Source of the DNA: Macrostomum hystrix
Taxonomy: Eukaryota; Animalia; Platyhelminthes
Direction: 5' to 3'
Length of the DNA: 64,000 nucleotides
Assembly: GCA_950097015.1 (NCBI GenBank)
Contig: CATNEN010000007.1
Location: forward strand, 11,656,001-11,720,000
Position 1 is the first letter of the stretch, and every line of letters starts with the position of its first letter. Of this stretch, positions 11,704-54,100 are shown one piece after another. Made by a program: the position numbers and the translations under genes. The notes beneath the pieces were generated by a model, which was not told the origin of the DNA, made no database searches, and saw only the letters and a list, made by a program, of their open reading frames with translations.

Positions 11704-11807
11704 CAGCGGCTACGGCTGCTGAAAGGGAAGGGACGGGTGGCACTCGAAGGCTGGGGATGTTAGTGAGCCATTGACTTTTTCCCTGCTGCATTAAAACACC
11801 TAAATGC

Positions 11808-12280: not shown

Positions 12281-12861
12281 AGTTCTGATTCGGAAAAGTA
12301 ATACGTGAGACACATTTCACTAGCAAAAAGCGAACAGGAGTTAAGTAGAAACAAAAGCCAGCAAGACAAAGCGCAGGGCATGTCGACATAGAACAGCTGG
12401 AACAGTTTCATAATTCACAACTATGAAATCTAATGCTAGTAAAATGACAACAAAATAATGAGCTAGTGAAGTACCTTACTTGCAGGTAACTAATTGAGCA
12501 ATATCAGCACACACAGAGATGGCACAGCAGCTGAGCAGGTTGGGGGATGGGTAAGGTGAGACAGAGGGGGAGTGGCCTGGAACAAGAGCGAGCGGCTTGT
12601 GACGGAACAGCGTCAGCCAGCCGGGTGAAATGCGCACCGGAGCTGTAGGAACAGTCACTGGCTGGAGAAGCAAGCGCTGAGGAAATACACGGCTCGGTTT
12701 GAAATTTGTAAGAATACTATCTAGACTTGAAATAATAAATGAAAAATTGACATCAGAGCACAGCCTGACTACAGGTGCGATGGCGAAATCGATTGGGTGA
12801 ACAGATTGACAGGCGGCTAGTAACTGCGCCTCACAATGGATCTGGGTAAAGGCTGCTGGAC

Positions 12862-15800: not shown

Positions 15801-16212
15801 GTTGGCCCAGTGGTGTCGGCCGGCCAATGATTGGTTGGGTCGGAGAAAGTCGAACCTGCGGTTTTCAGCGGGGATAACAGCAATAAGATGGCGAAACTGA
15901 ACGATTCGAGATCGAACTGGGGATAAGAGGTTGGGAGGGTGCTCACTTAAGTGCATCAACCAGCAGCAGGACCAGACGGTCGAAGCGGCGCGGCAGCCAG
16001 CAGGAGTCGTCGACAGCCACAGGCCGGGTGCCAGCAAAGCTGGCGGCCTCACGGCACAGCGAACGATTCGGCAGCTCCGTGCGGGACAGCAGCAAGCCGC
16101 TGGCGAACAGTGCCGTGCTGAGGCCCACACCGGCAGCGGCCAGTACGAACAGGACAACGGAGACCGCGGTCCGGTCAGGGCCGCTGTTGCCACTACAGCT
16201 GCTGTCAACTGC
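12862..16212 (-). CDS. PIGO: GPI ethanolamine phosphate transferase 3 (PIG-O/Gpi13), at least 3 coding exons, ~1060 aa; start codon not inside these exons
   Basis: Exons 16212-15947, 15855-14546 and 14456-12862, with phase-consistent 91- and 89-bp GT-AG introns (LVDAL-K-FDFL; ARS-T-EEPP). Motifs ADAPTTTLQRLKALLTGTLPTF, MGDDTW, DLDTVD, HMLGVDHCGHRYGP, GDHGMT, QIDLVPTL, SNSFIIAE and RRHLMAWKVFAPR; many C-terminal TM helices. A possible extra 5' exon lies at 16921-16889. Confidence 0.94.
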
Positions 16213-16342
16213 CTGCAACACCAGCGATTCGCAAAGCCAATTACAAATAAGAAGCCAAGGAATTAAACTGATTGAAATGAGCTAAGAAGTTGGTGGCCCA
16301 CTAACAGCCGGCGAGAAAGAATGCCACCAACAGAGCCAGATA

Positions 16343-23274: not shown

Positions 23275-24748
23275 TCAGCGATCGATGTTGCCAATGACTT
23301 CCCATGAGTCCGCTGCATCGTCGCCTGCACTGTCTGCCGCAATGCCGACCTGCCACCACTCATTGCTGTCGGTTGGAGCTGCAGCCTTCGGCAGCATGAC
23401 AATGTCCTCGATCATGGGGTAGGCGGTGGTTTCGCGAATCCGGTAGGCCTGGCCAGCGTCGCGGAACGCGCAGCGGATCCGATCGCGCACCGTCTGGCCG
23501 CGTCCGGAGCCGCTGACCGCCGACTCGTCGCCCCAGTTGGTTTCTGGCGTGTCGGGTGGCAGGTCGTGCTGAGCAAAGGACAGCTCTGGCTGCAGCAGGA
23601 TGAACCTGCAGTGAAATGCGTTATTCTTGGCTCTGTTATTGAAATTCTAGTATGCCATTTAATGAGCCACTCCTTGCAACTAACAGTACATTATCTGACA
23701 TTAAAAAACCTGCTAGAAAAAACTGAGGGATTGTTTCTACCAAACTACTCAAGCTTAACTTAAGGAATCAAACCAAGAGACTCAAACCGATGCAGACTCT
23801 AACCAATGCACAGACTCCAACCCATAGACTCAGACCTAGACATTCAAGCCTAAAGACTTAAACCCAGAGACGACAACGCCAATGCAGGGACTCAAACCCA
23901 GCCAGCCAGGTGAGTTTCCCGAGCTCGCACCCATCCGCTGCGCCGTAGGCGAATCGACTGTCTTCGGGGCTGTAGAAGGGCGCGAAGGTAGTGACGAAGA
24001 AGGTCTGGTTGTGGAAGCGGAACACCCAGCCAGGCCGGTGCAGTCGCTGGGTCTCGGCCATGCAGTCTCCACCGCCATCGCTAGTGTTGCAGGCAGCCAA
24101 AGTGCTCAGAGTTCGGTAGACAGCAACGCTGAACCGGCGAAAGTCACCAGCGCATCGCTCGCCCGGCAGGCGGATGACGAAGCCGTCAAGTCCGAGCTCG
24201 CCGCAGACACGGCAGAAGAGACGCAGCCGGGGCGCGCAGGCAGCTGCGTTGGCACTCAGCGACAGGCGACGCCGCCAGGCCGGGCCGCCCCAGAGCCGGG
24301 CGCGCCGGGCAAACACGCAGGCGCTGCCTTGTCGAACCGTTTCGAAGGCTCGCAACGACTCGCAGTCCTCGTCGGTGTCGGCACCATCGATGATGTCATT
24401 CACAGTGTCGTCCAGCACCGCAGTGCGAAGCTCCAGCAGCCGCCTCTCCGGCAGGTCGGACAGCGCCCCGGTGGTGGGCTTGCCGCGCAGCGGATTCTTC
24501 CAGCGGCGCTTCGAGTCTTGGTCGGGTTGATTGACGGCGGCGACGCGGGTGGCCGACCATCGATAGCTGAGGCCTAGCACGCCAGCCAACAGCGCCGTCC
24601 ACCAGCTAAGGCTGACGGAGGTGACCAGTAAACCGGCCAGGCAGGCAATGCGAATGCAGACAAGCCATGTGTTCACGGAGGACCTGAGGCGCAGCACAGT
24701 TTGCCGGCTCGGTGGTGGCACGGACTTTGTTGCTGAATCCGGGATCAT
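23275..24748 (-). CDS. YqcI/YcgG-like protein with N-terminal transmembrane hairpin, 2 exons, ~382 aa
   Basis: Exons 24748-23931 and 23605-23275, with a phase-2 GT-AG intron (AYGAAD-G-FILLQPELSF). Motifs ACVFARRA, WVFRFHNQTFFVTTFAP...SRF, LLQP..SF and RDRIR occur in the order expected for YqcI/YcgG (DcsA/GntA-like). The gene model is solid; the family call needs an HMM check. Confidence 0.62.
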
Positions 24749-25199: not shown

Positions 25200-28100
25200 G
25201 ACTCTTGTGACAGTCACTTTTTATCGATCTTGTTAAGATGAGGCTCAAATATACTCTGGGAGTTCTCTGAATTCGGGGGAGTGCTTCAGCGATTCGTGGC
25301 GAAATTTTCCCCGTGGCGAAGTCACAGCGCGCACGCACTTTGCGATTTTTCGAATAGCCAGATGGATTCGCGAAGAGGCTGCAGCCTCTGTGGAGAACCG
25401 CGTGGAGTGTGGAACTGCTTTAGGTTTCAACGAATGGAGCCGGAGGTTATGTGGGCGGGAGAAGCAGCTGTGTTTTTGCTGCTTGGGAGCCAATCATCTA
25501 GTAGGCACTTGCAAACGAGCAATGATCTGCGGTGTCGAAGGCTGTAAGGCTGTAAGGCATCATCGACAGCTGCATCGGCAAGGCCCAACGACGCCGGCTG
25601 CGAATCGTCAAGAAGGGGGGTCGCCGAAGAAGATCGAGCGACCGAAGACAATCCAAGGGCAGACGGTTAAGGTCCAGGGCCTGCAAGAGTCGCACACATT
25701 GCTCGCTAGGAACTCGTCATCAATGGCGCTGCAAACCGTGCCTGTAGTTCTGGCAAAAGGTGGCGGGTACGTGCGTGTACATGCCCTGATGGACGATGCA
25801 AGCATCCGCTAGTACTTGACGTGGCGGCGGAACTCGGATTGCGGATGTTGGCCAAGCGGTAGAGTTGTATGAGCAGCTTGCGGAACTCTGGAGCAAAGCA
25901 GGAATGCGAGCTTGCAAGTGGATGTCTAACGTCGTGGAGGTGCTTCACAGAGTTCCATCGGAGGCTCGCACGGCAAAGGCGCTCGGAGTGAACTGGGATG
26001 CAAAGGAGGATGCCATTGGAATTTCAATCAGCCAGATGGTGTCGACCGACCCGACGATGACCAAGAGAGTGCTGCTGCGATGAGTCGGCGAGGTCTTCGA
26101 CCCCTGCGGCCGAAGCAGCCGAAGTACTTGACGGCTCCAGCAGTCGTAGGCAGCTAGTGTTGCAGTTAGCATGGCAGCAAGGCGTTGGTTGGGATGACGC
26201 ACCGGATGATGGTTGGGATGACGCACCGGATGATGGTTGGGATGACGCACTGGATGATGGTTGGGATGACGCACTGGATGATGGTTGGGATGACGCACTG
26301 GATGATGGTTGGGATGACGCACTGGATGATGGTTGGGATGACGCACTGGATGATGGTTGGGATGACGCACCGGATGATGGTTGGGATGACGCACCGGATG
26401 ATGGTTGGGATGACGCACCGGATGATGGTTGGGATGACGCACCGGATGATGGTTGGGATGACGCACCGGATGATGGTTGGGATGACGCACTGGATGATGG
26501 TTGGGATGACGCACCCGATGATGGTTGGGATGACGCACTGGATGATGGTTGAGATGACGCACCGGATGATGGTTGGGATGACGCACTGGATGATGGTTGG
26601 GATGACGCACCCGATGATGGTTGGGATGACGCACTGGATGATGGTTGAGATGACGCACCGGATGATGGTTGGGATGACGCACTGGATGATGGTTGGGATG
26701 ACGCACTGGATGATGGTTGGGATGACGCACTGGATGATGGTTGGGATGACGCACTGGATGATGGTTGGGATGACGCACTGGATGATGGTTGGGATGACGC
26801 ACTGGATGATGGTTGGGATGACGCACTGGATGATGGTTGGGATGACGCACTGGATGATGGTTGAGATGACGCACCGGATGATGGTTGGGATGACGCACTG
26901 GATGATGGTTGGGATGACGCACCCGATGATGGTTGGGATGACGCACTGGATGATGGTTGGGATGACGCACTGGATGATGGTTGGGATGACGCACTGGATG
27001 ATGGTTGGGATGACGCACTGGATGATGGTTGGGATGACGCACCCGATGATGGTTGGGATGACGCACTGGATGATGGTTGGGATGACGCACCCGATGATGG
27101 TTGGGATGACGCACTGGATGATGGTTGGGATGACGCACCCGATGATGGTTGGGATGACGCACTGGATGATGGTTGGGATGACGCACTGGATGATGGTTGG
27201 GATGACGCACTGGATGATGGTTGGGATGACGCACTGGATGATGGTTGGGATGACGCACTGGATGATGGTTGGGATGACGCACTGGATGATGGTTGGGATC
27301 ACGCACTGGATGATGGTTGGGATGACGCACTGGATGATGGTTGGGATGACGCACTGGATGATGGTTGGGATCACGCACTGGATGATGGTTGGGATGATGG
27401 GATCCGGAGCTAGCAGCTCATGCGGCCTTGTGGACACAGCAACTGTCGAAGGCTCCCAGCCTTGTAGTGCCTCGCTGCCTGCGTCCAGACAATGGATCAG
27501 CGGAACTGCACACGTTTGTCGACGCATCTCAGGCGGCTTATAGAGTCGTGTATCTGCGCAGCGTGAGTGGAAAAGGTGTGACGGTTCGTTTTGTGGCTTC
27601 AAAGGTGGCGCCGTTGCTCACCGTAAGCATCCTGCTAATGGATCTGAGGCTGTGGTCCTTGGATTACGGCTTGCAAGTCTAGCGGCGGAAGCATTGCAAG
27701 TCCCGATTGAGTCCGTCGGGTTTCGGAGTGATAGCCACGCGTCAAATGGAGCTTTCAGCCTCCTGTAGCGCCGCATTTTTGTGGTGCGCACGGGTGATGG
27801 TCCGGGCCGCCAAGCGAGCGCTGCACGCGATTCTAAGCAAATGCGGAGGTCAACGACGAGGAGCTGCAGTCCGTGATTATCGGAGCGGAGGCACTTATCA
27901 ACTCGCGCCCAATCACCTATCAATTTGCCAACCCGAGAGACGAGGAGCCGCTGACCCCAAACCATTTTCTGCACGGTTAGGCTGGCGGTCAGTTTGCTCC
28001 GGACGTATCCGATGACATCGCTGCGGATCCAAGGCGGCGCTGGCGGCGCGTCCAAGAGCTGGTGCGGCACGCTAGACTACGCGAGTGGCTGCCTGGGCTC

Positions 28101-28265: not shown

Positions 28266-29227
28266 TGTACTCGAGCACTGTTACGGCTTTAAAGAAGGTT
28301 GACTACTGGTTTATTGTGTTTACTGTTTGCTGTACAACAAAGCTTACTATTCTTTGTTGTGCTTGTTCTTTGTTGTTAACTCAGTATTGGTTTTCTGTGT
28401 GAAATACTGAAGTCGGTGTCAGCTTTTAGCAGTTGCTAACCATTATTCAGCTTTGACTACTTTAGACTTTTTGTTAGCTTTTTTCTCCTGGTTGAGTGTT
28501 TCTATATTAACTTGCGACGCGCGATTATTATTATTACTAATATTCTTTTTTTGGCTCCCGGTTTTGAACCAGGTGTTTTAATGTGCTCGGATTAATTGCA
28601 CGCATAGTTTGCTAATCGAATTATTGTGCATTCGTCCATTTTTCACTCGAGATATTTTTGGGTGAGCTTTCTGTCTAACAGCTACTGAATTATTGTTCGA
28701 GCCTACATGCGTATCTTCTGGGCGGGAGTTGAAATTCTCGTTCTGAGAATTTTCTCGTTTTCTTGTGCTTTGGTGACAGATAAATTCTTTTGTTAGCGCG
28801 ACAAAACATTTTAGCCTTGTTTTTTCTTTCTCTTGTCGAAGAGGTCTTTGTTGCTGACATATGATGTCAGGAAGGGGTATTTTGTGAAGTTATATTTTCT
28901 GACTTAAAAGTCGCGGTCAGTCTCTTACCCCATAATGTTCATTCTACCTCTGCTTCTGTTCTACCTCGTTTCATTCTGTTCATTGTCCTCTGCTTGTCAC
29001 CCACCCCATTCTTGACTATGTTATACTTGTCGTTAAGAAGAGCTCTGCCCAATGTACGAGTTTTTGTTCCGTGTGTTTTTAGCTCGTATTCTGCGAGACC
29101 GCAGTTCCTATAAATAGAAGGCTTTTTAAGGACTGCTGATTTTCACACGATGGACAAGCTGGGCGATTAATTTAATTTTACGTTTTGATTTTCACTTTTT
29201 AGTCCTCATCGAAAAAAATAATAGGAG

Positions 29228-29539
29228 TGAAATAACTCTAGACTGGTGGTATTTAGAACGAAACGTAAACAGTCAGAGCTCCACGCTCCTGAGAACAGCG
29301 ATATATATTTTATGCGACGGCACGTTGGGTGTAAGGATTAGGGGGTGATAAAATAGAGCGAACAATGATTTGAAAGTCAGCCAGTTAACCAAACGGCTGC
29401 CAGCGCGGTGTACTCAGCGTACGCGCGCTGGCTGCACATGGCTGCACCGCACAATGAAATGATATTCAGCCAGTTAACAGACAGATGCCAGCGCGGTGTA
29501 CTCAGCGTATGCGCGCTGGCTGCAAGTCACTACATAACA
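29228..29539 (-). repeat. 3' LTR of the Gypsy element (312 bp)
   Basis: Plus strand TGAAATAAC...TACATAACA; matches 35390-35701 except one G/A difference. Confidence 0.97.
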
Positions 29540-32500
29540 CTTCTCCCACCATAGTTCAGACGGTCTGGGCTCTTGCGGATCCTGGTCGATCTTCGAGGCA
29601 CGTGCTGCGGTGATTGATCCCGCCGCTGCTGCTGCTGCGGTGCCATTGTTGGAGGCGTTGGAGGCGTTGGCGGTGGCTGATGTAGTGATGTCGGCGGCGG
29701 CGGCGGTGGGGGCGGCGGCGGTGCCAGTGGTAGGGGCGGTGGCAGTTGTGGCGGCTGACAGACCAGCCCCCGAGGCTGTTGGTCCACATTGCGGTGAGTC
29801 GTATCGCACCGCATCTGGTTTGCATGGCGCCGAACCGTTCTGTTGTCTGGCAGGTTGCACTGGTACCAGTTGCTGCCTTCAATGCCCACCACCGTTGCTC
29901 GCGTCCAGCTCCGTTCCTTTCCACAGCTGAAGTCTTGAACGAACACTGCCTCGCCCTCCGCGAAGCTCCGCCCGTGCGCCCCAGAGTCATGCTGCAGCCT
30001 TTGCTTCTCCTGGTTCTCGAGGACCCGCTTGGCAATGTCTGGCCTGGGTACATCGAGGAGCGTTCGCAGCGAACGGCGCATCAGTAGCTCACAAGGAGCC
30101 ACTCCTGTCGTTGGGTGCGGCGTTGTGCGGTAACTCAGCAAGAATCTCGCCAGCTGCGTCTCCAGAGAGCTGCCGTCGCTCGCTTGTTTTTTCAGAGAGC
30201 TCTTGACGGTCTGCACAGTTCGTTCGGCTTGGCCATTCGAAGCTGGGTGGTAGGGCGGCGTGCGGATGTGCCGAATGCCGTTCTTAGCACAGAAGGTTTC
30301 GAACTCCGAGCTTGCGAAGCAGGGACCGTTGTCCGAGACAATAGCATCCGGCAGGCCGTGGGCACTGAAGGTCTGTCGTAGCTTCTCTATCGTTGCAGAG
30401 CTTGTCGTTGCCGACGTCACGTGAACGTCGATCCACTTGGAGTAGGAGTCGACTACCACCAGGAGCATTCTTCCTTGGACGGGCCCTGCGAAGTCGATGT
30501 GAATCCGCGACCAGGGCCTTGTCGGCAGCGGCCACGGTTGCAGTGGCACCTCCGGACCGACTCGCTGGTGCTTCTGGCACTCCTGGCATCCCGCTGCCTT
30601 CGCCTCGATATCACGGTCCATGCCGGGCCACCAGATGTAGCTCCTGGCCAGCGACTTCATGCGGGACGCGCCAGGGTGTGCGACGTGCAGCGATTCCAGG
30701 AGACTGGATCGACAGGCCTCCGGAATGACGACGCGGCAGCCCCAAAGAATGCAGCCGTCTTGGACCGAGAGCTCCTGTAGGCGTTTGCCGAAGGGCGTGA
30801 GGTCAGGGGACAGGGATCCCTTGTCCGGCCAGGCAGAGAGACAGAAACGAATTACCTGAGACAATGTGGCATCGCGGCGTGACCAGTTACGCACATCTGA
30901 TGAAGTCACCGGACCGGCGTCGAGGCAGTCCATCACTTGAATGACTTCCGGTGGCACTGGATCGTCCTTGGGCCCGCTTGATGCAGGAAGGCGGCTCAGG
31001 GCGTCCGCCCGGAGCATAGAGGTCCCGCTGCGATGTACTAGACGGTAGCGATAGGCTGTCAGGAGCAGCGCCCATCGTTGAACTCGGCCGGACGCCAACG
31101 TTGGAAGCGGCCGTTCCTGCCCAAGGAGGCCTAACAGCGGCCGATGGTCCGTCAGCAGGTTGAACTCTTGGCCAAACAGATACTGGTGGAATTTTCTGAC
31201 GCCAAAGACCAGCGCGAGTGCCTCCTTCTCCAGCTGACAGTAGTTCTTCTCAGCGGCACTGAGACTGCGCGAAGCGTACGCGATCGGTTTGTCCATGCCG
31301 TTCTGACGATGGAAGATGACAGCGCCCAGGCCGTACTGCGAGGCGTCGCACTCCAGGTAGAGGTCCTCTGCCGCATTGTAGTGCACCAGGACACTTGGAT
31401 GCGTGAGTAGCTGCTTTGCTGCGGCAAACGCTTTGGCCTCACCGCGGTCCCACCGCCACTTCGAGTTTTTCTCCAGCAGCCGGTGTAGCGGTGCCAGCAC
31501 GCTGGAGAGATTCGGCAGGAACTTCCCGTAATAGTTGATGAGGCCCAAGAAGCTCCTGAGCTGAGTCGTGTTCGTCGGTGCTGGTGCATCTAGCACGGCT
31601 TGGACTTTGTCGTCGAGTGGGTGCAGTCCCTCTGCGTCGATGCGGTGACCCAGGTACGTGACCTCGTCCTGGAAGAATCTGCACTTCTCGAGCTTGCAGG
31701 TCAGGCCGGATTCCTTGAAGACCCTCAGGACCTCTCTGAGATTGTGCAGATGGCTCGCGTCGTCCTCTCCCGTGATGATGACATCATCGATGAAGGATGC
31801 TGTGTGCGGAATTCCACGCAGCAGGTTGTCCATCACTCGTTGGAAGACGCTTGGGGCAATCGACACCCCAAAAGGCAGTCGGGTGTAGCGCAGGAGTCCG
31901 ACGGAAGTGTTGATTGTACAGACCTCTTGGGCTTCCTCGTCCAGCGGAAGCTGCATAAATGCGTTGGTCAGGTCCAGCTTAGAGAACTTTTGCCCGCCAG
32001 TCAGCCGGGCGAACAGTTCGTCGATGTTTGGCAGGGGGTACGCCTCCGGCCGAATCGCTGTGTTGACTCCCTGCTTGAAATCTGCACAGACGCGGACGCT
32101 ACCGTCCGATTTCATCACTGGCACGATCGGTGACGCCCAGTCGGAGTTCTTGACCGGCATCAGCACTCCTTGGTCGATTTCCTTCTGCAGCTGCTGTTCG
32201 ACTTTTTCACGCAGCGCGAAAGGAACAGGTCGCGCCTTGAAGAACTTCGGTCTGGCGGTCTCCTTGAGACTGATAGACACTGGCTTGCCGTTGAACTCTC
32301 CCAGGCCTTGGAAGACATCTGAGAACTCCTTGATGAGCTTCTCAGCAGGGTCACCGATGCGCTTGACCGACTGCCAGTCCAGGCGCAGCTGAGCCAGCCA
32401 ATCCCGACCGAGGAGGCTCGGACCGTCGCCGGCGACAACGAGAAGCCGCAGTTGCGCTTCATCAGAGTCGGCGGACACTCGCACGCGGACGGACAGCTGG

Positions 32501-32733
32501 CCGAGCACGCGCACGGTCTGACCGGTGTAGGTGCTGAGTTGAATCGTTGACCGGGACAGTGTAACCAGTCCGTCCAGGTTCGCCTTGAATGTGCGCTCAG
32601 ACATCAGCGATACAGATGCACCTGTGTCTACCTCCATCTCGTGCTGCCGCCCTTCGATAAAAACCGATGTCCTGATCGGTGGAAAACTTGACTGCGGCCG
32701 ATCCGCCCCCAGATGATAAAACGGATACGACAC
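29530..32733 (-). CDS. pol: Gypsy Pol (protease-RT-RNase H-integrase), uninterrupted; no own ATG at its 5' end
   Basis: VDTGAS, LLGRDWL, YPLP, KLDLTNAF, LPFG, FIDD, YLGH, ECDASQYGLGA, LEKEALA, TDHRPL, H-H-C-C, IHIDFAGP, SDNG, NGQAERTVQT. The ORF-track start is a GTG (Val) of the original gag-pol junction. Confidence 0.95.
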   Translation of the reverse strand: MSYPFYHLGADRPQSSFPPIRTSVFIEGRQHEMEVDTGASVSLMSERTFKANLDGLVTLSRSTIQLSTYTGQTVRVLGQLSVRVRVSADSDEAQLRLLVVAGDGPSLLGRDWLAQLRLDWQSVKRIGDPAEKLIKEFSDVFQGLGEFNGKPVSISLKETARPKFFKARPVPFALREKVEQQLQKEIDQGVLMPVKNSDWASPIVPVMKSDGSVRVCADFKQGVNTAIRPEAYPLPNIDELFARLTGGQKFSKLDLTNAFMQLPLDEEAQEVCTINTSVGLLRYTRLPFGVSIAPSVFQRVMDNLLRGIPHTASFIDDVIITGEDDASHLHNLREVLRVFKESGLTCKLEKCRFFQDEVTYLGHRIDAEGLHPLDDKVQAVLDAPAPTNTTQLRSFLGLINYYGKFLPNLSSVLAPLHRLLEKNSKWRWDRGEAKAFAAAKQLLTHPSVLVHYNAAEDLYLECDASQYGLGAVIFHRQNGMDKPIAYASRSLSAAEKNYCQLEKEALALVFGVRKFHQYLFGQEFNLLTDHRPLLGLLGQERPLPTLASGRVQRWALLLTAYRYRLVHRSGTSMLRADALSRLPASSGPKDDPVPPEVIQVMDCLDAGPVTSSDVRNWSRRDATLSQVIRFCLSAWPDKGSLSPDLTPFGKRLQELSVQDGCILWGCRVVIPEACRSSLLESLHVAHPGASRMKSLARSYIWWPGMDRDIEAKAAGCQECQKHQRVGPEVPLQPWPLPTRPWSRIHIDFAGPVQGRMLLVVVDSYSKWIDVHVTSATTSSATIEKLRQTFSAHGLPDAIVSDNGPCFASSEFETFCAKNGIRHIRTPPYHPASNGQAERTVQTVKSSLKKQASDGSSLETQLARFLLSYRTTPHPTTGVAPCELLMRRSLRTLLDVPRPDIAKRVLENQEKQRLQHDSGAHGRSFAEGEAVFVQDFSCGKERSWTRATVVGIEGSNWYQCNLPDNRTVRRHANQMRCDTTHRNVDQQPRGLVCQPPQLPPPLPLAPPPPPPPPPPTSLHQPPPTPPTPPTMAPQQQQRRDQSPQHVPRRSTRIRKSPDRLNYGGRSVM

Positions 32734-32743
32734 CTCATCTGGA

Positions 32744-32746
<3 letters not shown>

Positions 32747-32774
<28 letters not shown>

Positions 32775-34553
32775 GGCCCCTCGGCCAAAGGCCATACAGG
32801 GGGCGCGCCAGCGCGCCCGTTGCCTCCAGGAAATCCAGCACCCTCTCCGGGTGCTCCTGCAACAGGGACATCGAGCCGATGCCTTCAAAGCAGCGGCGCT
32901 CCTCCTCCCATCTCGGGCAGTCCAGCAGGAAGTGTTCCGTGTTCTCGACCGGGGCTTGGCAATGTGGGCAGACCGGGCTCTCCACGCGGCCCCAGCGGTG
33001 TAGGGTGTCCCGAAGGAAAGGGGCCCGGTTGGCCCGCAGCTGATAAAGGGCCACTTCCTGGTCCCGCCGCCTCCTGTTGCTTGGCGGCAGTGGCCTGCCC
33101 CCGCAGCGCCGGTGAGGGTGCTCCGCCGGAACCTCAGCCTCGTACTGGGCTTTGGCCCGGACGACGCTCTGCCGCCGGACCGCAGCCTGAATGGCACCTG
33201 CTGAAGCCCGGGCGCCTTCCTGAGGCAGCGCGCAGCCTTCCCGGGCCAGCGAGTCGGCTTCCTCGTTCAGGTGCAGACCCGCATGTCCCGGGATCCAGAT
33301 GACTGTGAGCCGGTGTTTTTCAGCCAGCTGGTGCAGCAGGGCCACTGCCTGTGCCGCCCCATGGTCGTCCTGACACCGCTCCGGGCGCTGCAGCTTCTCG
33401 AAGAGCGCGCGGGAGTCGAAGAGCAGCCAGATGGTACGATGGGTCTGCCCCTCCAGCAACTCCCACGCCGCCTGCAGCCCCGCCGCTGCCGCCGCCGCCT
33501 CTGCAGATGTTGAGCACGTGAGGCGCCCTGTCGCGACTGACCCGTTGACATCCGGGCCCGGTGCCCGCCGCCGGATCACGTAGCCGCCTCCCCCGTTCCG
33601 GACTCCTTCCTCCGCTGCCCCGTCCGTCCAAATTTGCAGGTCAGGCGGGTCCTTCTGGTGCAGGTTGTCCAGAGTGATCAGGGCTTCCTGCCTCCCCCGC
33701 CACTCCGGGTCCTCCCTCTTCGTGTTGGGCGTGCAGACAAACGACACTGCCGTACCCCTCCACGGCCTCGGCAGCATGGTCACAGGCACCCGCTCCTCGG
33801 GATTATCGGCACTCCTCCTGCAGCCACAACCCCTCAACACTTGCTTGGCGGTATCCCTCCAGCTGGGCCGCAAACCCCCGCCTCGCGCCTTCAGCCTGCG
33901 CGCCGTGCATGGCTCCTGGGCCAGGCCTCCGAGCGGATGGGCAGCCGGGAACTGCCGGCACCTGGTGAGCAGCGCAGCAGCCTTCTCCTCGCAGATGGGG
34001 CCCAGCGACAGCAGCTCCGCGTCCGTCGTCAGCGCCAGCGAACGCGCCCCTGCCCCGACCCCCGTGATGATGCGGGCCGCTTCGGCGTTCAGCCGTTCCA
34101 ACCTCTGCCGGTAAGTTGGGGCCAGGAAGCTCCACCAGACCTCCGCGCAGTAGAGTCCAGCCGGCCTGACGTAGCTGCAATACAGCTGCCGCAGCGTACG
34201 AGCCTCCGCTCCCCAGGTGCGGCCTGCAACCGCACGGAGAGCGATGAGCCTGCGGCGAATGGTGGCAGCCGCAGATTGGGCGTGCTCGGCGAAGGTCAGC
34301 TGGCTGTCAAGGTGCACGCCCAGGATCTTGACCGTGCTGCTGAGCGCGATCTGCTGGCCGCCGACTGTCAGCTGCACGGGGGCCTTGCCCTTGACCTCCC
34401 CCGGGTGCGTGGTAACCAGTAGGGCTTCGGTCTTGTCGGGCGCCAGCTCGAACTGATGATCCTTGCACCAGGAAGCCACTGCATCGATGGCGGTTTGCGA
34501 CAGCTCCGCCGCCTCAGCTGCAGATTTCCCAGACGCGTTGACGGTCAGATCAT
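32747..34553 (-). mobile_element. 5'-truncated non-LTR retrotransposon (I group, Ingi/Nimb-like) with RNase H and CCHC, ending in a (GA)n tail
   Basis: Flanked by a 14-bp TSD CCTCATCTGGACTC (32733-32746 and 34554-34567). Starts at the DD of the RT xADD motif, then WCKDH...KTE, KILGVHLD, TWGA, RNase H (WTDG, SAE, FDS, WIPGH, NEEADSLA) and CPHC...EHFLLDC. The TAG is followed directly by (AG)n. Confidence 0.95.
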
Positions 34554-35376
34554 CCTCATCTGGACTCGCGCTCGTGGTCACCTGCTCCACCAGCTGGTGT
34601 GTCTGCTGCTGCCGCAGTGCATCTGTCTTACAGGCCTTCGCTGTGTGTCCGGTCTTGCTGCACTTAAAGCAGCGCTTGTCCACGAAGGGGCACTTGCTGG
34701 CCAGGTGACGGGTTGAGAGACAGCGAAAGCAGCGCCGACGACTTTCGGCTCCCAGCTGTCTGCTGTCTTCCTCTGGTCGCTGCCGCTCCATCCGTAGCAC
34801 AGCGTCGCTTTCCGTCGATGGCGTCGGTGCTGCCGAGTTCGCTGATCCCAGCGACCGGCAGTTGATGGCTGCCGATTCGCCCGCCCGAGCGATCTCCTTT
34901 GCTGTGTCGAGGGTGAGGGTCGGCTCCATCAGCAGCCGGCGTTGGATTTGCTGATCCGCGATGCCGCACACCAGTCTGTCCCGCAGCATGTCCGACAAGC
35001 TGTTGCCAAAGTTGCAGAACTCGGCCAGCTTCCGCAGCTCTGCCAGAAACTCTGCCACAGTCTCTCCAGCACGCTGGGCTCGGTTGTTAAAGTGGAACCT
35101 TTGGACGATCTCACTTGGTCTCGGGTTGAAATGACCGCTCAGCAGTGAACAGATGTCGTCGTACGATTTGCCAGCAACTTTGGCTGGAGAGCACAGGCTT
35201 CTAGCCAATTGAAACGTCTTCCTTCCACAGACACTCAGCAGGGTTGCTCTCTTCTTGCCCTCGTCAGTGATGTCCTGGGCGAGAAAATGCTGCTCCAGGC
35301 GCTCCTGGTATTCATCCCAGGTTTCGACGGAGTCTTCAAATTCTCCGATTCCGTGGGCCGGCATGGCTGGGCCCAA
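32770..35376 (-). CDS. gag: Chimeric ORF: Mag-like Gag (274 aa) fused in frame to LINE RT thumb/RNase H/CCHC (594 aa)
   Basis: Gag motifs WDEYQERLEQHF, KKRATLLSVCG, LRKLAEFCNF, LRDRLVCG and two CCHC knuckles; junction reads TTSASPDE|DDLTVNASG; 868 aa with no internal stop. Confidence 0.92.
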
Positions 35377-35378
35377 GT

Positions 35379-35388
35379 CTCGTCGCCA
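35379..35388 (-). promoter_or_regulatory. Primer binding site, complementary to the 3' end of tRNA-Ser(GCU)
   Basis: Minus strand TGGCGACGAG, one base after the 5' LTR; complements ...CUCGUCGCCA. Confidence 0.8.
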
Positions 35389-35389
35389 C

Positions 35390-35701
35390 TGAAATAACTC
35401 TAGACTGGTGGTATTTAGAACGAAACGTAAACAGTCAGAGCTCCACGCTCCTGAGAACAGCGATATATATTTTATGCGACGGCACGTTGGGTGTAAGGAT
35501 TAGGGGGTGATAAAATAGAGCGAACAATGATTTGAAAGTCAGCCAGTTAACCAAACGGCTGCCAGCGCGGTGTACTCAGCGTACGCGCGCTGGCTGCACA
35601 TGGCTGCACCGCACAATGAAATGATATTCAGCCAGTTAACAGACAGATGCCAGCGCGGTGTACTCAGCGTATACGCGCTGGCTGCAAGTCACTACATAAC
35701 A
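35390..35701 (-). repeat. 5' LTR of the Gypsy element (312 bp)
   Basis: Near-identical to 29228-29539; adjacent to the PBS and the TSD. Confidence 0.97.
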
Positions 35702-36199
35702 AGGAGGATAATAGTATGTAGTTCAGCAACTGGAGAATAAGGTTAGGCTAATGGATGAAGCATAGACTGAATCGAAAATGATTGAAGACGTGTTAAACTG
35801 GCTGCAAGTTTTAACTGACCATGAATCGGCACTATTCACCTGATACCACAATGACTAATTTGGCGATTAGTTCTCGATATATAAAGTACCCATGTCCTGC
35901 AGGGCAGTCGCAGATGGGTAAGTTATTCTGCAGCCGTGAGCCAAACAGCGGAGACTGCAAGGTGCCACTGCAGCTGAATTCCTGTCAGCACATGCATCTG
36001 ATTCTCATCTTGCCGAATTGTTTACGGCCATTGCCAACAAGCACCTTCCTGAGCTGCTGCTGGCCTGAAGGGCGGATAGAATTTTGCATTAACTGCGCCC
36101 GCTTTCCGACCTGCAGGATGAAAAGTTCCAGTGCTGCCGCATAGACTTGCTGTGAGAGCTGGGCAAGGGCTGCTGTGTTAGTCTGGGAGAGATAGAGAT

Positions 36200-37650
36200 T
36201 GAGGGTAGACTGAGAGAGGGAAGAGAAAGCAGGGTAGACTGAGAGAGGGAAGAGAGAGCAGGGTAGACTGAGAGGGAAGAGAGAGCAGGGTAGACTGAGA
36301 GGGAAGAGAGAGCAGGGTAGACTGAGAGAGGGAAGAGAGAGCAGGGTAGACTAAGAGGGAAGAGGGAGCAGGGTAGACTGAGAGGGAAGAGAGAGCTGGG
36401 TAGACTGTGAGAGGGAAGAGAGAGTGGGCTAGACTGTGAGAGGGAAGAGGGAGCAGGGTAGACTGTGAGAGGGAAGAGAGAGTGGACTAGACTGTGAGAG
36501 GGAAGAGAGAGCAGGGTAGACTGTGAGAGGGAAGAGAGAGTGGACTAGACTGTGAGAGGGAAGAGAGAGTGGGCTAGACTGTGAGAGGGAAGAGAGAGTG
36601 GACTAGACTGTGAGAGGGAAGAGAGAGCAGGGTAGACTGTGAGAGGGAAGAGAGAGTGGGCTAGACTGTGAGAGTGAAGAGAGAGCAGGGTAGACTGAGA
36701 GGGAAGAGAGAGCAGGGTAGACTGTGAGAGGGAAGAGATAGCAGGGTAGACTGAGAGGGAAGAGAGAGAAGGGTAGACTAAGAGGGAAGAGGGAGCAGGG
36801 TAGACTGTGAGAGGGAAGAGAGAGTGGGCTAGACTGTGAGAGGGAAGAGAGAGCAGGGTAGACTGTGAGAGGGAAGAGATAGCAGGGTAGACTGTGAGAG
36901 GGAAGAGATAGCAGGGTAGACTGAGAGGGAAGAGAGAGCAGGGTAGACTGTGAGAGGGAAGAGAGAGTGGGCTAGACTGTGAGAGGGAAGAGAGAGCAGG
37001 GTAGACTAAGAGGGAAGAGGGAGCAGGGTAGACTGTGAGAGGGAAGAGAGAGTGGGCTAGACTGTGAGAGGGAAGAGAGAGCAGGGTAGACTGAGAGGGA
37101 AGAGAGAGCCAGGTAGACTGTGAGAGGGAAGAGAGAGCCAGGTAGACTGTGAGAGGGAAGAGAGAGAAGGGTAGACAGTGAGAGTGAAGAGAGAGCAGGG
37201 TAGACAGTGAGAGTGAAGAGAGAGAAGGGTAGACTGAGAGTGAAGAGAGAGCAGGGTAGACTGAGAGGGAAGAGAGAGCAGGGTAGACTAAGAGGGAAGA
37301 GAGAGCCAGGTAGACTGTGAGAGGGAAGAGAGAGAAGGGTAGACAGTGAGAGTGAAGAGAGAGCAGGGTAGACAGTGAGAGTGAAGAGAGAGAAGGGTAG
37401 ACTGAGAGTGAAGAGAGAGCAGGGTAGACTGAGAGTGAAGAGAGAGCAGGGTAGACTAAGAGGGAAGAGGGAGCAGGGTAGACTAAGAGGGAAGAGAGAG
37501 CAGGGTAGACTAAGAGGGAAGAGAGAGCAGGGTAGACTAAGAGGGAAGAGAGAGCAGGGTAGACTAAGAGGGAAGAGGGAGCAGGGTAGACTGTGAGAGG
37601 GAAGAGAGAGCAGGGTAGACTGTGAGAGAGTGGGGGTAGACTTGAGAGGG
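36200..37650. repeat. GA-rich ~27-29-bp minisatellite
   Basis: Unit ~GGGTAGACT(GT)GAGAGGGAAGAGAGAGCA with variants; strongly purine-skewed. Confidence 0.95.
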
Positions 37651-38949
37651 AATTGAGAGCGCGGAAAACTGAGGGGAGTGCGTGTGAATATGTTGATGCG
37701 AGGGAAGCTTCTGATGTGTTAAAGTCGTTAACTCATCAAGAGACGGACATGCAGTATGGGTGAGAAATATGCCAAAAGTGACATTCCTGTATGGCAATAA
37801 GATGTGGCAAAGGCACAGTCGCAGATTCCATAATTCTCTGCAAGCAGGTCTGGCAGCCGAAGAGCTCTGAGCAGTGCCATGGTCTAAGCGAGCTACATAG
37901 GCTGCCCTGAGTCCAAGCCTTAAGGCTCATTCACACTGCAATCAAACGAGGCTGAAACACACGATTGTACATCCCTCTTATGACCATTCATTTGAACATC
38001 ACAAAAATGTACACCACAAACGAGTCATTTGATGGCAGTGTGAACGAGGCTTTAGCGTTTGCTGCAACACAGGCATCACATATGTTTTATTGTGCTAGTG
38101 GTGAGGCATTCATTCTTCGCGGCAGAAACTGCGCACTTCTCGCTCTTTCTCAACCTCGGAGGGCAATCGCTGCATTTTCTCAGAGGCTCGCATGAACAGA
38201 GTCTACTCTTCTGTGCTCAACTCTAGACTAGCCGAGACAGGATTGTCTAGTCTAGAACCAACAATGCCAAACGGAACACTTCCCTAACTGGAGCAAGAAT
38301 GCCCGGCTGAAGCGACAGAAGCAGTTTGTGTCTTAGTCGATTCTCGTGTTGGAAAAAAACGAGCCGGCAAAAAAGAAGTCGGCCGATTGAATTTCGCGTA
38401 GAGGCAACTTAAGTTAGCGATGTATTTTTACCCGGGGAATACAAAACAAGTCCGGCGGAGCTGTGAGCGATTACAATTTTGTACGTACTGTTTTTTAGGG
38501 GCGAAAGAGCGGAAAACAGTGAAGCAAAGCAGAAGACGGGCAGCTAGCCGGTCGCCCCTAGCAAGAAGGGGCCCAGCAACAACAGAACAGGTTGCAGTCA
38601 GGCTTGAAGGGGCCCAGCAACAACACAACAGGTTGCAGTCAGGCTGTTTGTGTAGAAAGAGAGCCAAGGGCGCCACAAGAAAAACAGAGGCGCAGCACTG
38701 GGGGCAGCACCCACAGGCTAGCAGGTACACAGCAAAAATGGTTAATAAAAGTGGAGACAAGAAGCTGATGGAAGCGACCAGCGGCAAACATTTCTCGTGA
38801 ATAAGAACGGGGAACAGTCGGGAGGGAGCTGGGCGAGTAAAAAAGGCCTCACCGACCGGGAATTCAGGGAGCAGCGAGGCAAGGGAATTTAAGAGCAATT
38901 GATTAGAGCTTTGGGTGTCAGGGAATCAGTCAGCAGCCTCCTGGCCTCA

Positions 38950-39354
38950 TCAGTAGCCAGAGGCAACCAGGCTCTCCTTGAGCTTGGACACGGCCACGTT
39001 CACCTGACCGCCGACGCTGGCACCGATCGCCGACTGGTTGGCAGCGTCGATAACATGGCCGCCGATGACGAAGCACTGAGCGCAGCCCATGACCGTCACG
39101 CTGGAGGGACCCTTCTTGCCGTCCAGCTCGCGGTTCACCAGCCTGATGGTCATGTACTTCTCGTTGTTCAGCTTGAAGGACTGGAACTCGCCGGCGTTGC
39201 TCTTGCCTAGGCCGGCAGCCAGGGCCTGCAGCTCCTCGGGCGTGGCATTGAACTTCTCGGACTTGGCCCACACGCTGCCGTCGTTGCCACAGATGGCGCC
39301 AATGTTGACGCCCGGATACTGCAGGAGGTTCGACACCCAAGAGTCCCAAGACAT
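38950..39354 (-). CDS. Profilin, 134 aa, intronless CDS
   Basis: MSWDSWVSNLL, GAICGNDGSVWAKS, FKLNNEKYMTIR, LDGKKG and a C-terminal helix ending ASGY; Kozak GCCATG; tandem TGA TGA. Confidence 0.93.
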   Translation of the reverse strand: MSWDSWVSNLLQYPGVNIGAICGNDGSVWAKSEKFNATPEELQALAAGLGKSNAGEFQSFKLNNEKYMTIRLVNRELDGKKGPSSVTVMGCAQCFVIGGHVIDAANQSAIGASVGGQVNVAVSKLKESLVASGY

Positions 39355-39500
39355 GGCGACGGTTGCAGCAGCTGGCGGTCACAATGGAATTCAAGGCAGA
39401 GGAGAGTATGGAGAAAGGCGAAAGGTCACTGCCGCAGTTGAATAAAAACTCCCAAGGCAAAATTTTAGCGCAAACAGGCCAGAACGGCCAGTGGCGCCGT

Positions 39501-50861: not shown

Positions 50862-51100
50862 GTAAGTACTCTAGCATTTCGTGCTTGCATCCCAGCCTAA
50901 TCTCAAAGCCCTTCGACTAGCCAAATTCCGCTCTGCATGTGCGCAGAACCGAGGGGCCCCCTGCTGCGTGTGCGGTCTCTGCACGGAAGCTCGTTCATTT
51001 TTATAAAGTTCCCGCATAATTTCGTAGAGCGTCTGCAAATTCGCTCCCTGAGAGTTCGTTTTCTCTAGCGCCGAACTTTTATCCACGCCGCGAATTGCAG

Positions 51101-54100
51101 GTGGCGGAGCCGTCCAGGCTGTCGCATCCTCGCGGGCTCGCATCACCACGGCGAAGGGAGAACGGCTAGATCTCATCGGCATGGAAACGGCTGATGACGT
51201 AGCCGACGACTCCGAAGTCTCCGGCGGCTCAGAGGCCTTCGTCACAACGGAGGCCAGCGGCGCCAATCCCAGTGCGGCGATCGCGCGGGCTACCGCCCGA
51301 GCTGCCAGTATCGCAGGCGCGGCGCTGGCCCGCGGCCGGGCCCGCCAGGGCGCCGAGGAGTACCGCATCTTCATCTCGACCTCTTGCACTGTGCGGCCCA
51401 GCCCGGTGCTGGAGCCTAGCCGCTTGCAGATCACCGTCAGCAGCGACAGCGAACTTCAGCAGCGACAGCAGCCCGCCGATTCCAGTTTGGTAATTGGAGA
51501 GGCCGAGAAGAAGCGGGTCGTGAGTTCGCCTCGCCGTTTGGATAGTCGGGACAGCTCGGAGAACGTCTTCTCCCTGCTGCGCCTGGGCCGGCAGGACACC
51601 ACACAGGAGACGATCACACAGGAGCTGCCGTCTCCAGCCAAAGGCGACAAGACCGACTACGCAGACTTCGAGGCCGTCACGCGATCCGTCATCCAGAGCC
51701 GCTACAACACTGAACGGCGCGAGGACATTGCTGACGACTACTGCCGCCGGGCATCTAAGGCCGTGCAGGCCGAGGTGCAGCTCATGGAGCAGCTGAAAGC
51801 CGACGAGTCAGCTCAGCCGACCGACCTGCTGGGCCGCATCCGCTCCGACCAGGAGCGATTTCACGACCTTAAGCGTCAGCTCGACGCTCTAAAGGCTCGC
51901 CAGCTTGCCAGGCAGCGCTTGCTGGAGACGCCGCGGGAATTGACGACGATTCCGCCTCGATCACCGACGGTTCCCTCGCCTAAGACGCCTGAAGAGCAGC
52001 GGCCGCCGACCATAAGTCCACAGAGCGGGGACTCCACCATGCTGGGCGGCAACATGGCGGAGAGCGCGTACATATCAGACAGCAGCGATCCCAGCTCGCC
52101 AACATCGGCAGAGAAAGCGAACCCGCATGAGCCGCAGCGGCTGCCCTATCGGTCTGTGCTACAGGAGGCCGCTTTGCTTCCAGGGGGTGCCCGGCCGACG
52201 CCCCGTCACCACCAGTCGTCGCTCCAGCTGGATCAGGAGCGGTTGCAGCGGGCTCGGAACGAATACTTCCGACGACCCATGTTCGATCCTGCGTCCAAAG
52301 CCGGCCAGTCCGGCTCCATGCGTTCGGGCGGCAGCAACAGCCCCAGCGACTACCGAGCTCGAAGTGCCTCCAGCACGCTCAGCAAGACCTCATCCCAAAG
52401 CATGTACCAGCTGAGGGAGCTGATGGATGACCAGAGCGCCCTGCAGGCCTACTCGCAGCTCACCGGCTCCGGCCGGCGGCGTTATATGTCCACGGACATC
52501 GACGACTTGCCGGACGACGGCAAAGCTGGCGGCACCCCCGAGGGCGGCTCGACGTACGACCTGAATGCGTTTGATACGGAGCCCGGAAACTACAAGTCTG
52601 TGTCCCTGTTTGACCTGCGGCGCAGCATGCTGGCCAACGATGCGAGAGTGGCAAATGTCACGGCCAATGACTCGAAATCGTACGTTTCGCTGATTGAGAC
52701 GGACGTCGACACTGGCGAGGAGCTGAGCCACGAAATCGTGATGGAAACAGATGTGGACATCGACTCGCCGTTAAGCCCGGCGCCAAAGTCGCAGAGTTTG
52801 ATGGACCTCGCCGGCATGCCGCGGCCAAATCCTGGCGGCATCTTCGACGGCCTGGGCGCCCGGGATGCCGAACTTGACAGGCGGCTTAATCGTGCCAACA
52901 GTGAGGACATGCTGGACTCGGGCGCGGCGCCCACCACCGCCAGACGAGTCAAGGCCAGCCGCAACAACTCGAAGCGCCTGCAGCAGCAGCAGCAGCAGCA
53001 GCAGGAGAAGACATTCATTCAGCGCCTGGAAGAGCGGGCAACTTCGGAGAGCGAGAAGGCCATCTGCAAGTCTCTGTCTCGGCTGGACATTCCAAAGTGG
53101 ATGGACAACCTGAAGCTGAACCAGAACTCGGCTTCGGCTGTCACAGTGATGGCGTCCGCTGTAGATGCGCCTAAGCCCTGGTCTGCTAAGTACCGTGATG
53201 GACCCGGGTCGACCGCAGGAATCGATCACACCGACCAGAGCCTGCAGCCACTCATCATCCCAAAGTTTGTTAGCCTCCCTGTGCGGCCTGCCCTGTTCAG
53301 CCCAGGCTACAGCTCGCTCAGCGTCCGGCGAGACGAGGCCACCGAGAGTGACTTTGAGAGAACGCAGGTCGCGACAGAGCGGTCTCAGCCTCCGCCGCAG
53401 ACAGCGCCGGAGGAGCCCAGAAAAAAGTACTTTACGGAGAGCAGCATCCGGCGAGATAGTCTGTCGGTCGCTGCGGTCGCTGCGAGTGTTCGCCAGCAGC
53501 AGGCCGCACCGCCAGCACAAGCCAGGCCGCCGATTTCACCGAGCCTGGTTCTGGCGCCGTTGAAGTTGGACCCGAGCGATTTTTTGCCGAAGACAGAAAA
53601 GTCCGCAGCCGTGGCTGACGAGCCTCGGTTAGAGCCATCCGTGGCGCCGAGAACGGCTGTCGTTTCAGAGTCGTCTGCGCTTCCACCAGCACCGTCACCG
53701 CCAAGGCTGTCGACGCTGCCGCCAGAGTTACTTGATGGCTCTTCAGACGAGTCACAGAACGTCGGTGACGATCAGCCGGTCAGCGAAGCCAGCAACATCA
53801 TGTTCATCGACCGCAGCTTCCGGGAGAGCTCTGAGCAGCAGCTGCAGCAGCATTTCGGCGACACCAGCACGACCGTCTCCACTGACTTCCCCTCTGACTC
53901 CCAGTCAGACAGCGGATCCGCCTCGGCAGACAGGCAGCAGTACGAAGACGATGAGGAAACTGAATCGTCCGGCTCGTCCGAGGACTCGTCGGATGACTCG
54001 TCCACTACAGGGAGCTCGTCCTCCAAGTCATTCTCTTCCGGTTCACCGGAGACATCCGAGGCTGAGGATTCCGGTGATGAGGAGGAAGAAGTGCCGCAAA

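What the first reader, a model, noticed from the sequence alone, without database searches (positions are those of the whole stretch)
32733..35376. LINE RNase H module captured in frame inside a young Gypsy element: Gag-[RT thumb-RNase H-CCHC]-TAG-Pol
Seen: a 1807-bp LINE 3' fragment with a 14-bp TSD sits exactly between the Gag knuckles and the protease. Removing it restores one gag-pol ORF (...TTSASPDEVSYPFYHL...). Insert plus TSD is 1821 nt (607 codons), so both junctions keep frame: Gag reads into 594 aa of LINE protein, and after one TAG the frame continues RERERERESPDEVSYPF into an intact Pol. All RNase H catalytic positions (D, E, D, H, D) are present. Established: some LTR lineages carry a second RNase H (vertebrate retroviruses, plant Tat elements), with non-LTR elements proposed as donors, and gammaretroviruses make Pol by reading through a single UAG. 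Inference: this may be a snapshot of such a capture, or even a propagating dual-RNase H chimera. Caveats: double in-frame junctions arise by chance about 1 time in 9, and TAG-A is not a classic leaky context.
Basis: partly seen in the sequence, partly recalled or inferred. Interest (0 to 1): 0.85.

Follow-up and report, generated by a model that had tools for sequence, protein, structure and literature searches.

The report
LINE fragment interrupting a young Gypsy
A piece of one jumping gene (a LINE) sits inside another (a young Gypsy element) in the same reading frame, but it ends in what is likely its own stop signal, so this is likely one disabled copy rather than a new working hybrid.

Summary
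The anatomy is confirmed. A 1807-nt LINE 3' piece (end of RT, RNase H with all five catalytic residues, zinc finger, TAG, (GA)n tail) lies between 14-nt target duplications inside a Gypsy element whose LTRs differ at 1 of 312 bases. Both joins keep the gag frame. The hybrid reading is not supported. All 6 of 6 runs laid hold uninterrupted family copies. The 3' junction stands in 2 of 6 runs (one study), with the window's tail length; the 5' junction stands in 0 of 6. The deepest run assembles both families unbroken across both joins. The TAG lies at the LINE family's C-terminus, in a poor readthrough context with no downstream structure (z 0.59). Both partners carry amino-acid changes at conserved sites. 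Given sense orientation, both joins fall in frame by chance in about 11-15% of cases. No Gag-plus-LINE protein was found among 174 relatives. One open point: in two RNA-like runs the junction form is about as deep as the uninterrupted form, so this copy may be transcribed and could be copied in trans. The scan noted no look-alike DNA before, only other LINE-in-Gypsy insertions.

The parts
35702..35706 (-). host target-site duplication of the Gypsy element, left copy (CTCCT)
35390..35701 (-). 5' LTR, 312 bp, TG...CA
   Evidence: 1 mismatch to the 3' LTR
35379..35388 (-). primer-binding-site-like TGGCGACGAG; the match to tRNA-Ser is recalled, not tested
   Evidence: no tRNA gene in the window
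34568..35364 (-). gag from ATG 35364, with two CCHC knuckles (34731-34690, 34671-34630)
   Evidence: 57% identical to Gag of gag-pol protein P0022
34554..34567 (-). LINE target-site duplication, 5' copy; its last bases also match the LINE (5' microhomology)
32747..34553 (-). 5'-truncated LINE, 1807 nt, beginning at the DD of RT YxDD, open in the gag frame
   Evidence: family contig runs 2340 nt further 5' (X1 record 5)
33232..33639 (-). LINE RNase H domain (PF00075, E 5e-11), D-E-D-H-D present
32914..33018 (-). LINE C-terminal zinc-finger region (zf-RVT, below Pfam cut-off)
32770..32772 (-). TAG at the C-terminus of the LINE ORF; context CAG-TAG-AGAGAG
32747..32769 (-). (GA)n tail of the LINE, 23 nt, directly behind the stop
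32733..32746 (-). LINE target-site duplication, 3' copy
   Evidence: junction present in contigs of X2 and X4
29530..32732 (-). pol: protease, RT, RNase H, integrase, proline-rich tail; no env; its stop lies just inside the 3' LTR
29540..29550 (-). polypurine tract
29228..29539 (-). 3' LTR, 312 bp
29223..29227 (-). host target-site duplication, right copy (CTCCT)

Best explanation
A 5'-truncated LINE copy sits between gag and protease of a young Gypsy element, flanked by a 14-nt duplication and ending in a stop codon, and is likely a one-off insertion that would end this copy's translation before Pol. Shown: TSD, tail, truncation against a longer LINE family, both joins in frame, uninterrupted sister copies. 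Inferred: the LINE endonuclease nicked the target, the (GA)n tail primed on the target's GAG, reverse transcription stopped at the YxDD codons and joined by a short microhomology. This LINE has no 3' UTR and its tail has no stop in any frame, so frame at the 3' join depends only on tail length. An LTR-driven RNA would give an 864-aa Gag-LINE fusion with a dead RT remnant and a probably foldable RNase H, and at most basal readthrough into Pol. The copy is then dead in cis and drifting, though probably still transcribed.
For: Uninterrupted gag-TSD-pol contigs in 6 of 6 runs. In X1 that contig (record 4) has depth 764, beside 737 and 880 for its neighbours and 88 for the unique flank; the 4150-nt LINE contig (575) crosses the truncation point unbroken; none of the 7 X1 pieces laid on 32500-34800 is a junction. 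The 3' junction contigs have the window's tail length (0 gaps); X4's is identical over 1106 nt and X2's pol contig is identical to the window over 2957 nt, where X1, X3 and X5 differ: one haplotype. Relatives end at the same place (P0001 ...RPPYGL, P0003 ...AAGQ). UAG-A fits none of the three readthrough motif types and +4 A ranks low (PMC4615788 passages); the 123 nt from the stop fold no better than shuffles (z 0.59). The insert has Gly where 18 of 19 relatives and the family contig have Arg; at one Pol RNase H site 0 of 27 relatives share the window's residue. Frame odds 0.11-0.15 given sense, 0.06-0.07 overall. No protein with both Gag and the LINE part in 172 + 2 hits; 0 of 55 LINE loci have Gag or Pol hits.
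Against: No genome or raw reads, so copies and flanks were not counted. Contig depth is no copy number and contigs drop rare variants; X1 may be a strain that lacks the insertion. In X2 and X4 the junction form is about as deep as the uninterrupted one (10.2 vs 12.5; 2.7 vs 2.0). X2's junction contig differs from the window at 4 places, all within 33696-33805; I read that as a mosaic with another LINE copy but did not test it. The insert is not visibly younger than the Gypsy copy (4 of 1781 vs 5 of about 3990 differences from X1 contigs, p 0.47), so insertion into a parent copy is not excluded. Tca2 bypasses a gag stop without a standard signal (PMC2194720, abstract).
Confidence: 0.8

Rival explanations
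1. The interrupted element is a non-autonomous passenger: it is transcribed, keeps LTRs, PBS and PPT, and is packaged and copied by proteins from uninterrupted sisters, so the insert could spread without any readthrough.
For: All cis signals are present; uninterrupted sisters exist; the junction form is about as deep as the uninterrupted form in X2 and X4, whose record sizes (258 and 316 nt mean) look like RNA assemblies (inferred; the tool guesses DNA). LTR elements carrying foreign inserts undergo further rounds of copying in Drosophila (PMC5131818 passages).
Against: No junction contig in the deepest run, where both families assemble unbroken; a single haplotype for all junction evidence; absent from 4 of 6 runs.
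Confidence: 0.1
2. A working dual-RNase H element: ribosomes read through the TAG and make Gag-LINE-Pol, from which the protease frees a second, fully catalytic RNase H.
For: Both joins in frame, all catalytic residues present, Pol open. Gammaretroviruses read through one UAG (PMC4178896, search listing). Tat lineages I and II carry the extra RNase H upstream of RT (PMC4408406 part 2).
Against: The stop is the LINE's own C-terminal stop, in a non-leaky context without structure. Every Gag would carry 594 foreign residues. The native RNase H keeps its motifs (CDAS, EKE, TDH, DALS). Conserved-site changes in both parts. No such protein.
Confidence: 0.03
3. The junction RNA comes from a start inside the LINE piece (near 33820-33880) rather than from the LTR, giving a pol-only RNA.
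For: The X2 and X4 junction contigs begin at 33879 and 33822 with no loose end, and no run shows the 5' junction. A minor promoter at a gag-pol junction is known from Tca2 (abstract).
Against: Those ends lie 4.6 kb from the 3' LTR end, near where the uninterrupted form also thins out (4.0-4.1 kb), as 3' bias would give; the gap is the most GC-rich part of the insert (0.73-0.74). The first ATG behind the TAG is 3 codons before the protease DTG, so protease would be cut short. Both runs are from one study and contigs cannot show a start.
Confidence: 0.05
4. The 5' junction is an assembly error in the window.
For: It is seen in 0 of 6 runs.
Against: A 14-nt duplication flanks the insert (chance about 1.5e-6), only a few bases are shared at the join, and the 3' junction is confirmed in 2 runs.
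Confidence: 0.02

Closest known systems
5'-truncated LINE insertions made by target-primed reverse transcription (L1 data: PMC2912911, passages)
   Same: TSD, simple-repeat 3' tail, 5' truncation, short 5' microhomology (reported there for nearly 80% of truncated L1), target not deleted.
   Different: Donor is an RNase H-bearing APE-type LINE with a (GA)n tail and no 3' UTR; both joins fall in frame with the host element's ORF.
Dual-RNase H LTR elements: Tat (PMC4408406 parts 1-2 of 6 and passages; PMC10508981 part 1 of 3), Chronos and Archon (PMC5348765 passages), Odin and retroviruses (PMC9040795 passages)
   Same: An extra RNase H with a full active site lies inside an LTR element, in frame with gag and pol; the His-type site is the kind retroviruses carry; Tat I/II place theirs upstream of RT.
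   Different: Those are fixed lineages in which the extra domain is part of Pol and the native RNase H has degenerated. Here a stop separates it from Pol, the native domain keeps its motifs, a dead RT piece and zinc finger come along, and only one haplotype is seen.
LTR-mediated retroposition (PMC5131818, passages)
   Same: Foreign coding sequence inside an LTR element, transcribed, able in principle to be copied again in trans.
   Different: There part of the element's ORF was replaced by template switching in all cases; here nothing is replaced and a TSD and tail point to LINE-driven insertion.
Mag-lineage Ty3/Gypsy elements (PMC3286476, passages and part of Table 1)
   Same: Short LTRs, 5-nt TSD, about 4.6 kb apart from the insert, single gag-pol frame in relatives, no env.
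   Different: Clade not tested by phylogeny against named references; the PBS-tRNA match is recalled.
Ingi-type LINEs (PMC3708506, passages)
   Same: Full-length relatives have endonuclease, RT and RNase H in one ORF; 2 of 12 carry a 2A-like GDVHxNPGP motif near the N-terminus.
   Different: 2A-like motifs occur in five other clades too; no tree with named references was built.

Membership tests
TPRT insertion of a 5'-truncated LINE | target-site duplication | tested here: met
   14 nt
TPRT insertion of a 5'-truncated LINE | 3' simple-repeat tail after the ORF end | tested here: met
   23-nt (GA)n behind TAG; a distant relative, L003, also ends in (GA)n
TPRT insertion of a 5'-truncated LINE | 5' truncation against a longer family member | tested here: met
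   contigs of X1, X2 and X3 run on beyond 34559, X1's by 2340 nt; relatives have 660-820 more residues
TPRT insertion of a 5'-truncated LINE | target sequence kept whole | tested here: met
   25 + 35 Gypsy residues between last knuckle and DTG; 39 of 40 measurable relatives have 45-91 (14 of 54 not measurable)
Dual-RNase H LTR elements | extra RNase H with full catalytic set | tested here: met
Dual-RNase H LTR elements | extra RNase H encoded within the Pol frame without a stop | tested here: not met
   TAG 32772-32770
Dual-RNase H LTR elements | native RNase H degenerated to a tether | tested here: not met
   PF17917 E 2e-31; CDAS, EKE, TDH, DALS motifs present
Dual-RNase H LTR elements | structure shared by a lineage of copies | tested here: inconclusive
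   one haplotype, 2 of 6 runs, none in the deepest run; no genome to count copies
Programmed UAG readthrough (gammaretroviral type III; type I) | UAG-G plus downstream pseudoknot, or UAG-CAAUYA | tested here: not met
   UAG-AGAGAG; fold z 0.59, first 29 nt unpaired (the folding tool does not model pseudoknots); motif types from PMC4615788
Programmed UAG readthrough (gammaretroviral type III; type I) | measured readthrough | not testable with these tools
   needs reporter, Ribo-seq or proteomics
LTR-mediated retroposition by template switch | part of the LTR element's ORF replaced, no TSD | tested here: not met
Ty3/Gypsy (Metaviridae) | LTRs, PBS, PPT, order PR-RT-RH-IN | tested here: met
Mag lineage of Gypsy | RT phylogeny with named Mag elements; PBS for tRNA-Ser or tRNA-Leu | not tested
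   no named references at hand; 5-nt TSD fits most Mag rows seen
Ingi clade (I group) LINE | RT phylogeny; single APE-RT-RNase H ORF with 2A-like peptide | tested here: inconclusive
   domain set met in relatives, 2A-like in 2 of 12, no tree built

The most novel reading that the evidence does not exclude
This is a transcribed Gypsy sub-lineage that carries a LINE RNase H in frame between Gag and protease and is being copied in trans (or by low readthrough): a caught-in-the-act first step of RNase H capture from a non-LTR donor by plain LINE insertion, one stop codon away from a Tat I/II-like layout.
Probability: 0.08. Interest if true: 0.75.

Novelty: new member of a known kind. Interest (0 to 1): 0.25.

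Why it matters
As a single dead copy it is an ordinary nested insertion. It does illustrate one route by which the proposed non-LTR donation of RNase H to LTR elements could start: a LINE without a 3' UTR and with a stop-free tail lands in frame at both ends in roughly 1 of 14-18 insertions into a gag-pol ORF. If the copy proved to have spread, it would be a living intermediate for a step so far inferred only from trees, and its fate could be tested.

Tried and rejected
No whole genome is held, so copies could not be counted. BLASTN within the window found no second copy of the LINE, gag or pol. TAG read as glutamine in this host: rejected, since ten long frames (7001 codons, up to 1528 aa) hold 284 CAG and no in-frame TAG and three host frames close with TAG; partly circular because the frames were chosen as stop-free. 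Exact removal of the insert by splicing: no GT-AG pair in any register of the TSD. Repeated site-specific LINE insertion at this Gypsy site: no sign; both junction contigs have the window's tail length and no loose Gypsy end. The metagenome scan with the single protein found no relative; the profile scan gave 55 distant loci, none with Gag or Pol. Cluster look-up gave no useful names. The Atlas held no model of P0001, so no taxon or clade lead came from it. Uncovered parts of low-depth runs are no evidence of absence. Structure and complex prediction were not run: they could not decide copy number or readthrough. The host taxon was not determined.
Full report
Anatomy. On the minus strand lies a 6474-nt Gypsy element (35701-29228) with 312-nt LTRs differing at one base, a 5-nt host TSD, a PBS-like and a PPT-like stretch. 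Its gag starts at 35364 and has two CCHC knuckles; its pol has protease, RT, RNase H and integrase and no env. Between them sit two copies of a 14-nt word, 1821 nt apart, around an 1807-nt insert. The insert is richer in G+C (0.68 against 0.59-0.60; third positions 0.80 against 0.70), encodes 594 aa in the gag frame, ends in TAG and a 23-nt (GA)n tail, and the frame resumes into pol.

What the insert is. Its protein is 69% identical to the last 590 residues of a 1249-aa endonuclease-RT-RNase H protein (P0001) and 23-49% to 25 others. It begins at the DD of the RT YxDD motif, so most of RT is missing and the remnant cannot polymerise (inference from established RT anatomy). The five RNase H catalytic residues are invariant in 20 of 20 aligned sequences. 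The closest relatives end at the same place, so the TAG is likely the LINE's own stop. A 4150-nt contig of run X1 is the same LINE family and runs 2340 nt further 5'. Its alignment reaches 6 nt into the TSD, which points to a short 5' microhomology, as reported for nearly 80% of truncated L1 insertions (PMC2912911, passages). The Gypsy target lost nothing: 25 + 35 residues lie between knuckle and protease DTG, and 39 of 40 measurable relatives have 45-91. This is the signature of target-primed insertion, not of template switching, which replaced part of the ORF in all Drosophila cases (PMC5131818, passages). The clade is Ingi-like or another I-group LINE; this was not settled.

Is the double frame match special? 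Hardly. Words of 2-6 nt shared by the Gypsy ORFs and the LINE ORF are in frame 36-44% of the time rather than 33%, so a microhomology join leans towards frame. The tail has no stop in any frame and its length sets the 3' frame at one in three. Together that gives 0.11-0.15 for sense insertions and 0.06-0.07 overall.

Has it spread? No genome is held, so I laid contigs of 6 of the 18 listed runs. The uninterrupted gag-TSD-pol form stands in all 6. In the deepest run, X1, it is one unbroken contig at depth 764, against 88 for the unique flank, and the LINE contig (575) crosses the truncation point unbroken; none of the 7 pieces laid on 32500-34800 is a junction, although variant pieces of depth 93-199 are kept. 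Depth is no copy number, but the figures suggest roughly 8-10 Gypsy and 6-7 LINE copies per flank, most Gypsy copies uninterrupted. By my recall of the assembler, a junction carried by several copies would have split these contigs; X1 may also be a strain without the insertion. The 3' junction stands in 2 of 6 runs, X2 and X4, from one study. Both have the window's tail length. X4's contig is identical to the window over 1106 nt, and X2's pol contig over 2957 nt, where X1, X3 and X5 differ by 1-4 bases per contig. All junction evidence thus fits one haplotype. Against this, X2's junction contig differs at four places clustered in 33696-33805, probably a mosaic with another LINE copy, untested. 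The 5' junction is in 0 of 6 runs.

Is it expressed? X2 and X4 look like RNA assemblies by record size and by depth falling towards the 5' end (my inference, the tool guesses DNA). In them the junction form is about as deep as the uninterrupted form (10.2 vs 12.5; 2.7 vs 2.0). That is a weak hint that this copy is transcribed and supplies a good part of the family's pol RNA. The junction contigs stop at 33879 and 33822, which fits 3' bias or an internal start; contigs cannot tell.

Can Pol be reached? The context is CAG-UAG-AGAGAG. It fits none of the three viral readthrough motif types, and +4 A ranks low in most data sets tabulated there (PMC4615788, passages). The 123 nt from the stop fold no better than shuffles (z 0.59; 145 of 200 fold as well). 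No GT-AG pair removes the insert in register, and the first ATG behind the stop is 3 codons before the protease DTG. Tca2 shows that a gag stop can be bypassed without a standard signal (PMC2194720, abstract only), so this is not proof.

Signs of drift. Against X1's family contig the insert differs at 4 listed places: 2 silent, 2 amino-acid-changing, one giving Gly where 18 of 19 relatives have Arg; X2's junction contig has the family base there, X4's has the window's. The Gypsy part differs at 5 places, 2 at second codon positions; at one, in Pol's RNase H region, 0 of 27 relatives share the window's residue. The numbers are small, and the two rates do not differ (p 0.47), so the order of the two insertions is not dated.

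Other chimeras. Among 172 distinct proteins (the latter lists the best 150 of 34,080 hits), 80 match only the LINE part, 92 only the Gypsy part, none both. A search of longer proteins gave 2 hits, both LINE-only (weak evidence by the tool's own note). None of 55 metagenome loci of related LINEs has Gag or Pol hits.

Comparison with what is known. Dual-RNase H elements (Tat, Chronos, Archon, Odin, retroviruses) have the extra domain inside Pol and a degenerated native domain (PMC4408406 parts 1-2 of 6 and passages; PMC10508981 part 1 of 3; PMC5348765 passages; PMC9040795 passages). This element meets only the catalytic-residue criterion. Tat I/II do place the extra domain upstream of RT, so position alone does not exclude the analogy. 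The non-LTR donor proposal (Malik and Eickbush 2001) I saw only as cited in PMC4408406. Five searches of the held library (listings only) showed no report of an in-frame LINE RNase H between gag and protease; the library lacks most subscription papers and no supplements were read. Earlier notes of this scan show no look-alike DNA, but several LINE-in-Gypsy insertions in other genomes. One prompted the check for repeated site-specific insertion, another the in-trans rival; neither note was checked here.

Verdict. The feature is real and well described, and is most likely an ordinary one-off nested LINE insertion that disables this Gypsy copy in cis (0.8). Copying in trans (0.1) is the live alternative, and functional readthrough is unlikely (0.03). 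Interest 0.25; 0.75 if further copies with other flanks are found.

Noticed in passing
window 35701-35390 and 29539-29228: Each LTR holds an internal duplication of about 78 nt (LTR positions 16-92 and 104-181, 86% alike).
   Followed up: no
window 35647 and 29485: Both LTRs of this copy share a base that differs from most LTR contigs in the four runs, so the variant likely came from the parent copy.
   Followed up: no
window 34548: LINE pieces of two runs (X5, X6) both begin exactly here, 5 nt inside the insert; unexplained.
   Followed up: no
window 34099 (X2 contig): A LINE contig of X2 leaves the window's sequence here into 111 unrelated letters that begin like an LTR; perhaps another element inserted in another LINE copy.
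   Followed up: no
window 23858-24748: A 296-aa ORF with a weak YqcI/YcgG match (PF08892, E 2e-4, below cut-off) behind a predicted hydrophobic N-terminus; the family is mostly bacterial by my recall.
   Followed up: no
window 8454-16262, 38950-39378, 51052-55638: Host genes: RRM plus SPOC protein (RBM15-like, recalled name), a phosphodiesterase-domain gene (PIGO-like, recalled name), profilin, and a MYND-finger protein.
   Followed up: partly
window 25237-25812: A Cys/His-rich frame that looks like a BEL/Pao Gag remnant by recall; no Pfam hit.
   Followed up: partly
window-wide: At least ten tandem arrays with units of 8-52 nt, including a 27-29-nt array at 36186-37700 next to the element.
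   Followed up: no
P0006, P0007: Two full-length LINE relatives carry a 2A-like GDVHxNPGP motif near the N-terminus.
   Followed up: partly
P0187, P0188: Two UniRef entries named as Macrostomum lignano kinases include LINE RT-tail or RNase H pieces 26-31% identical to the insert; possibly gene-model fusions.
   Followed up: no
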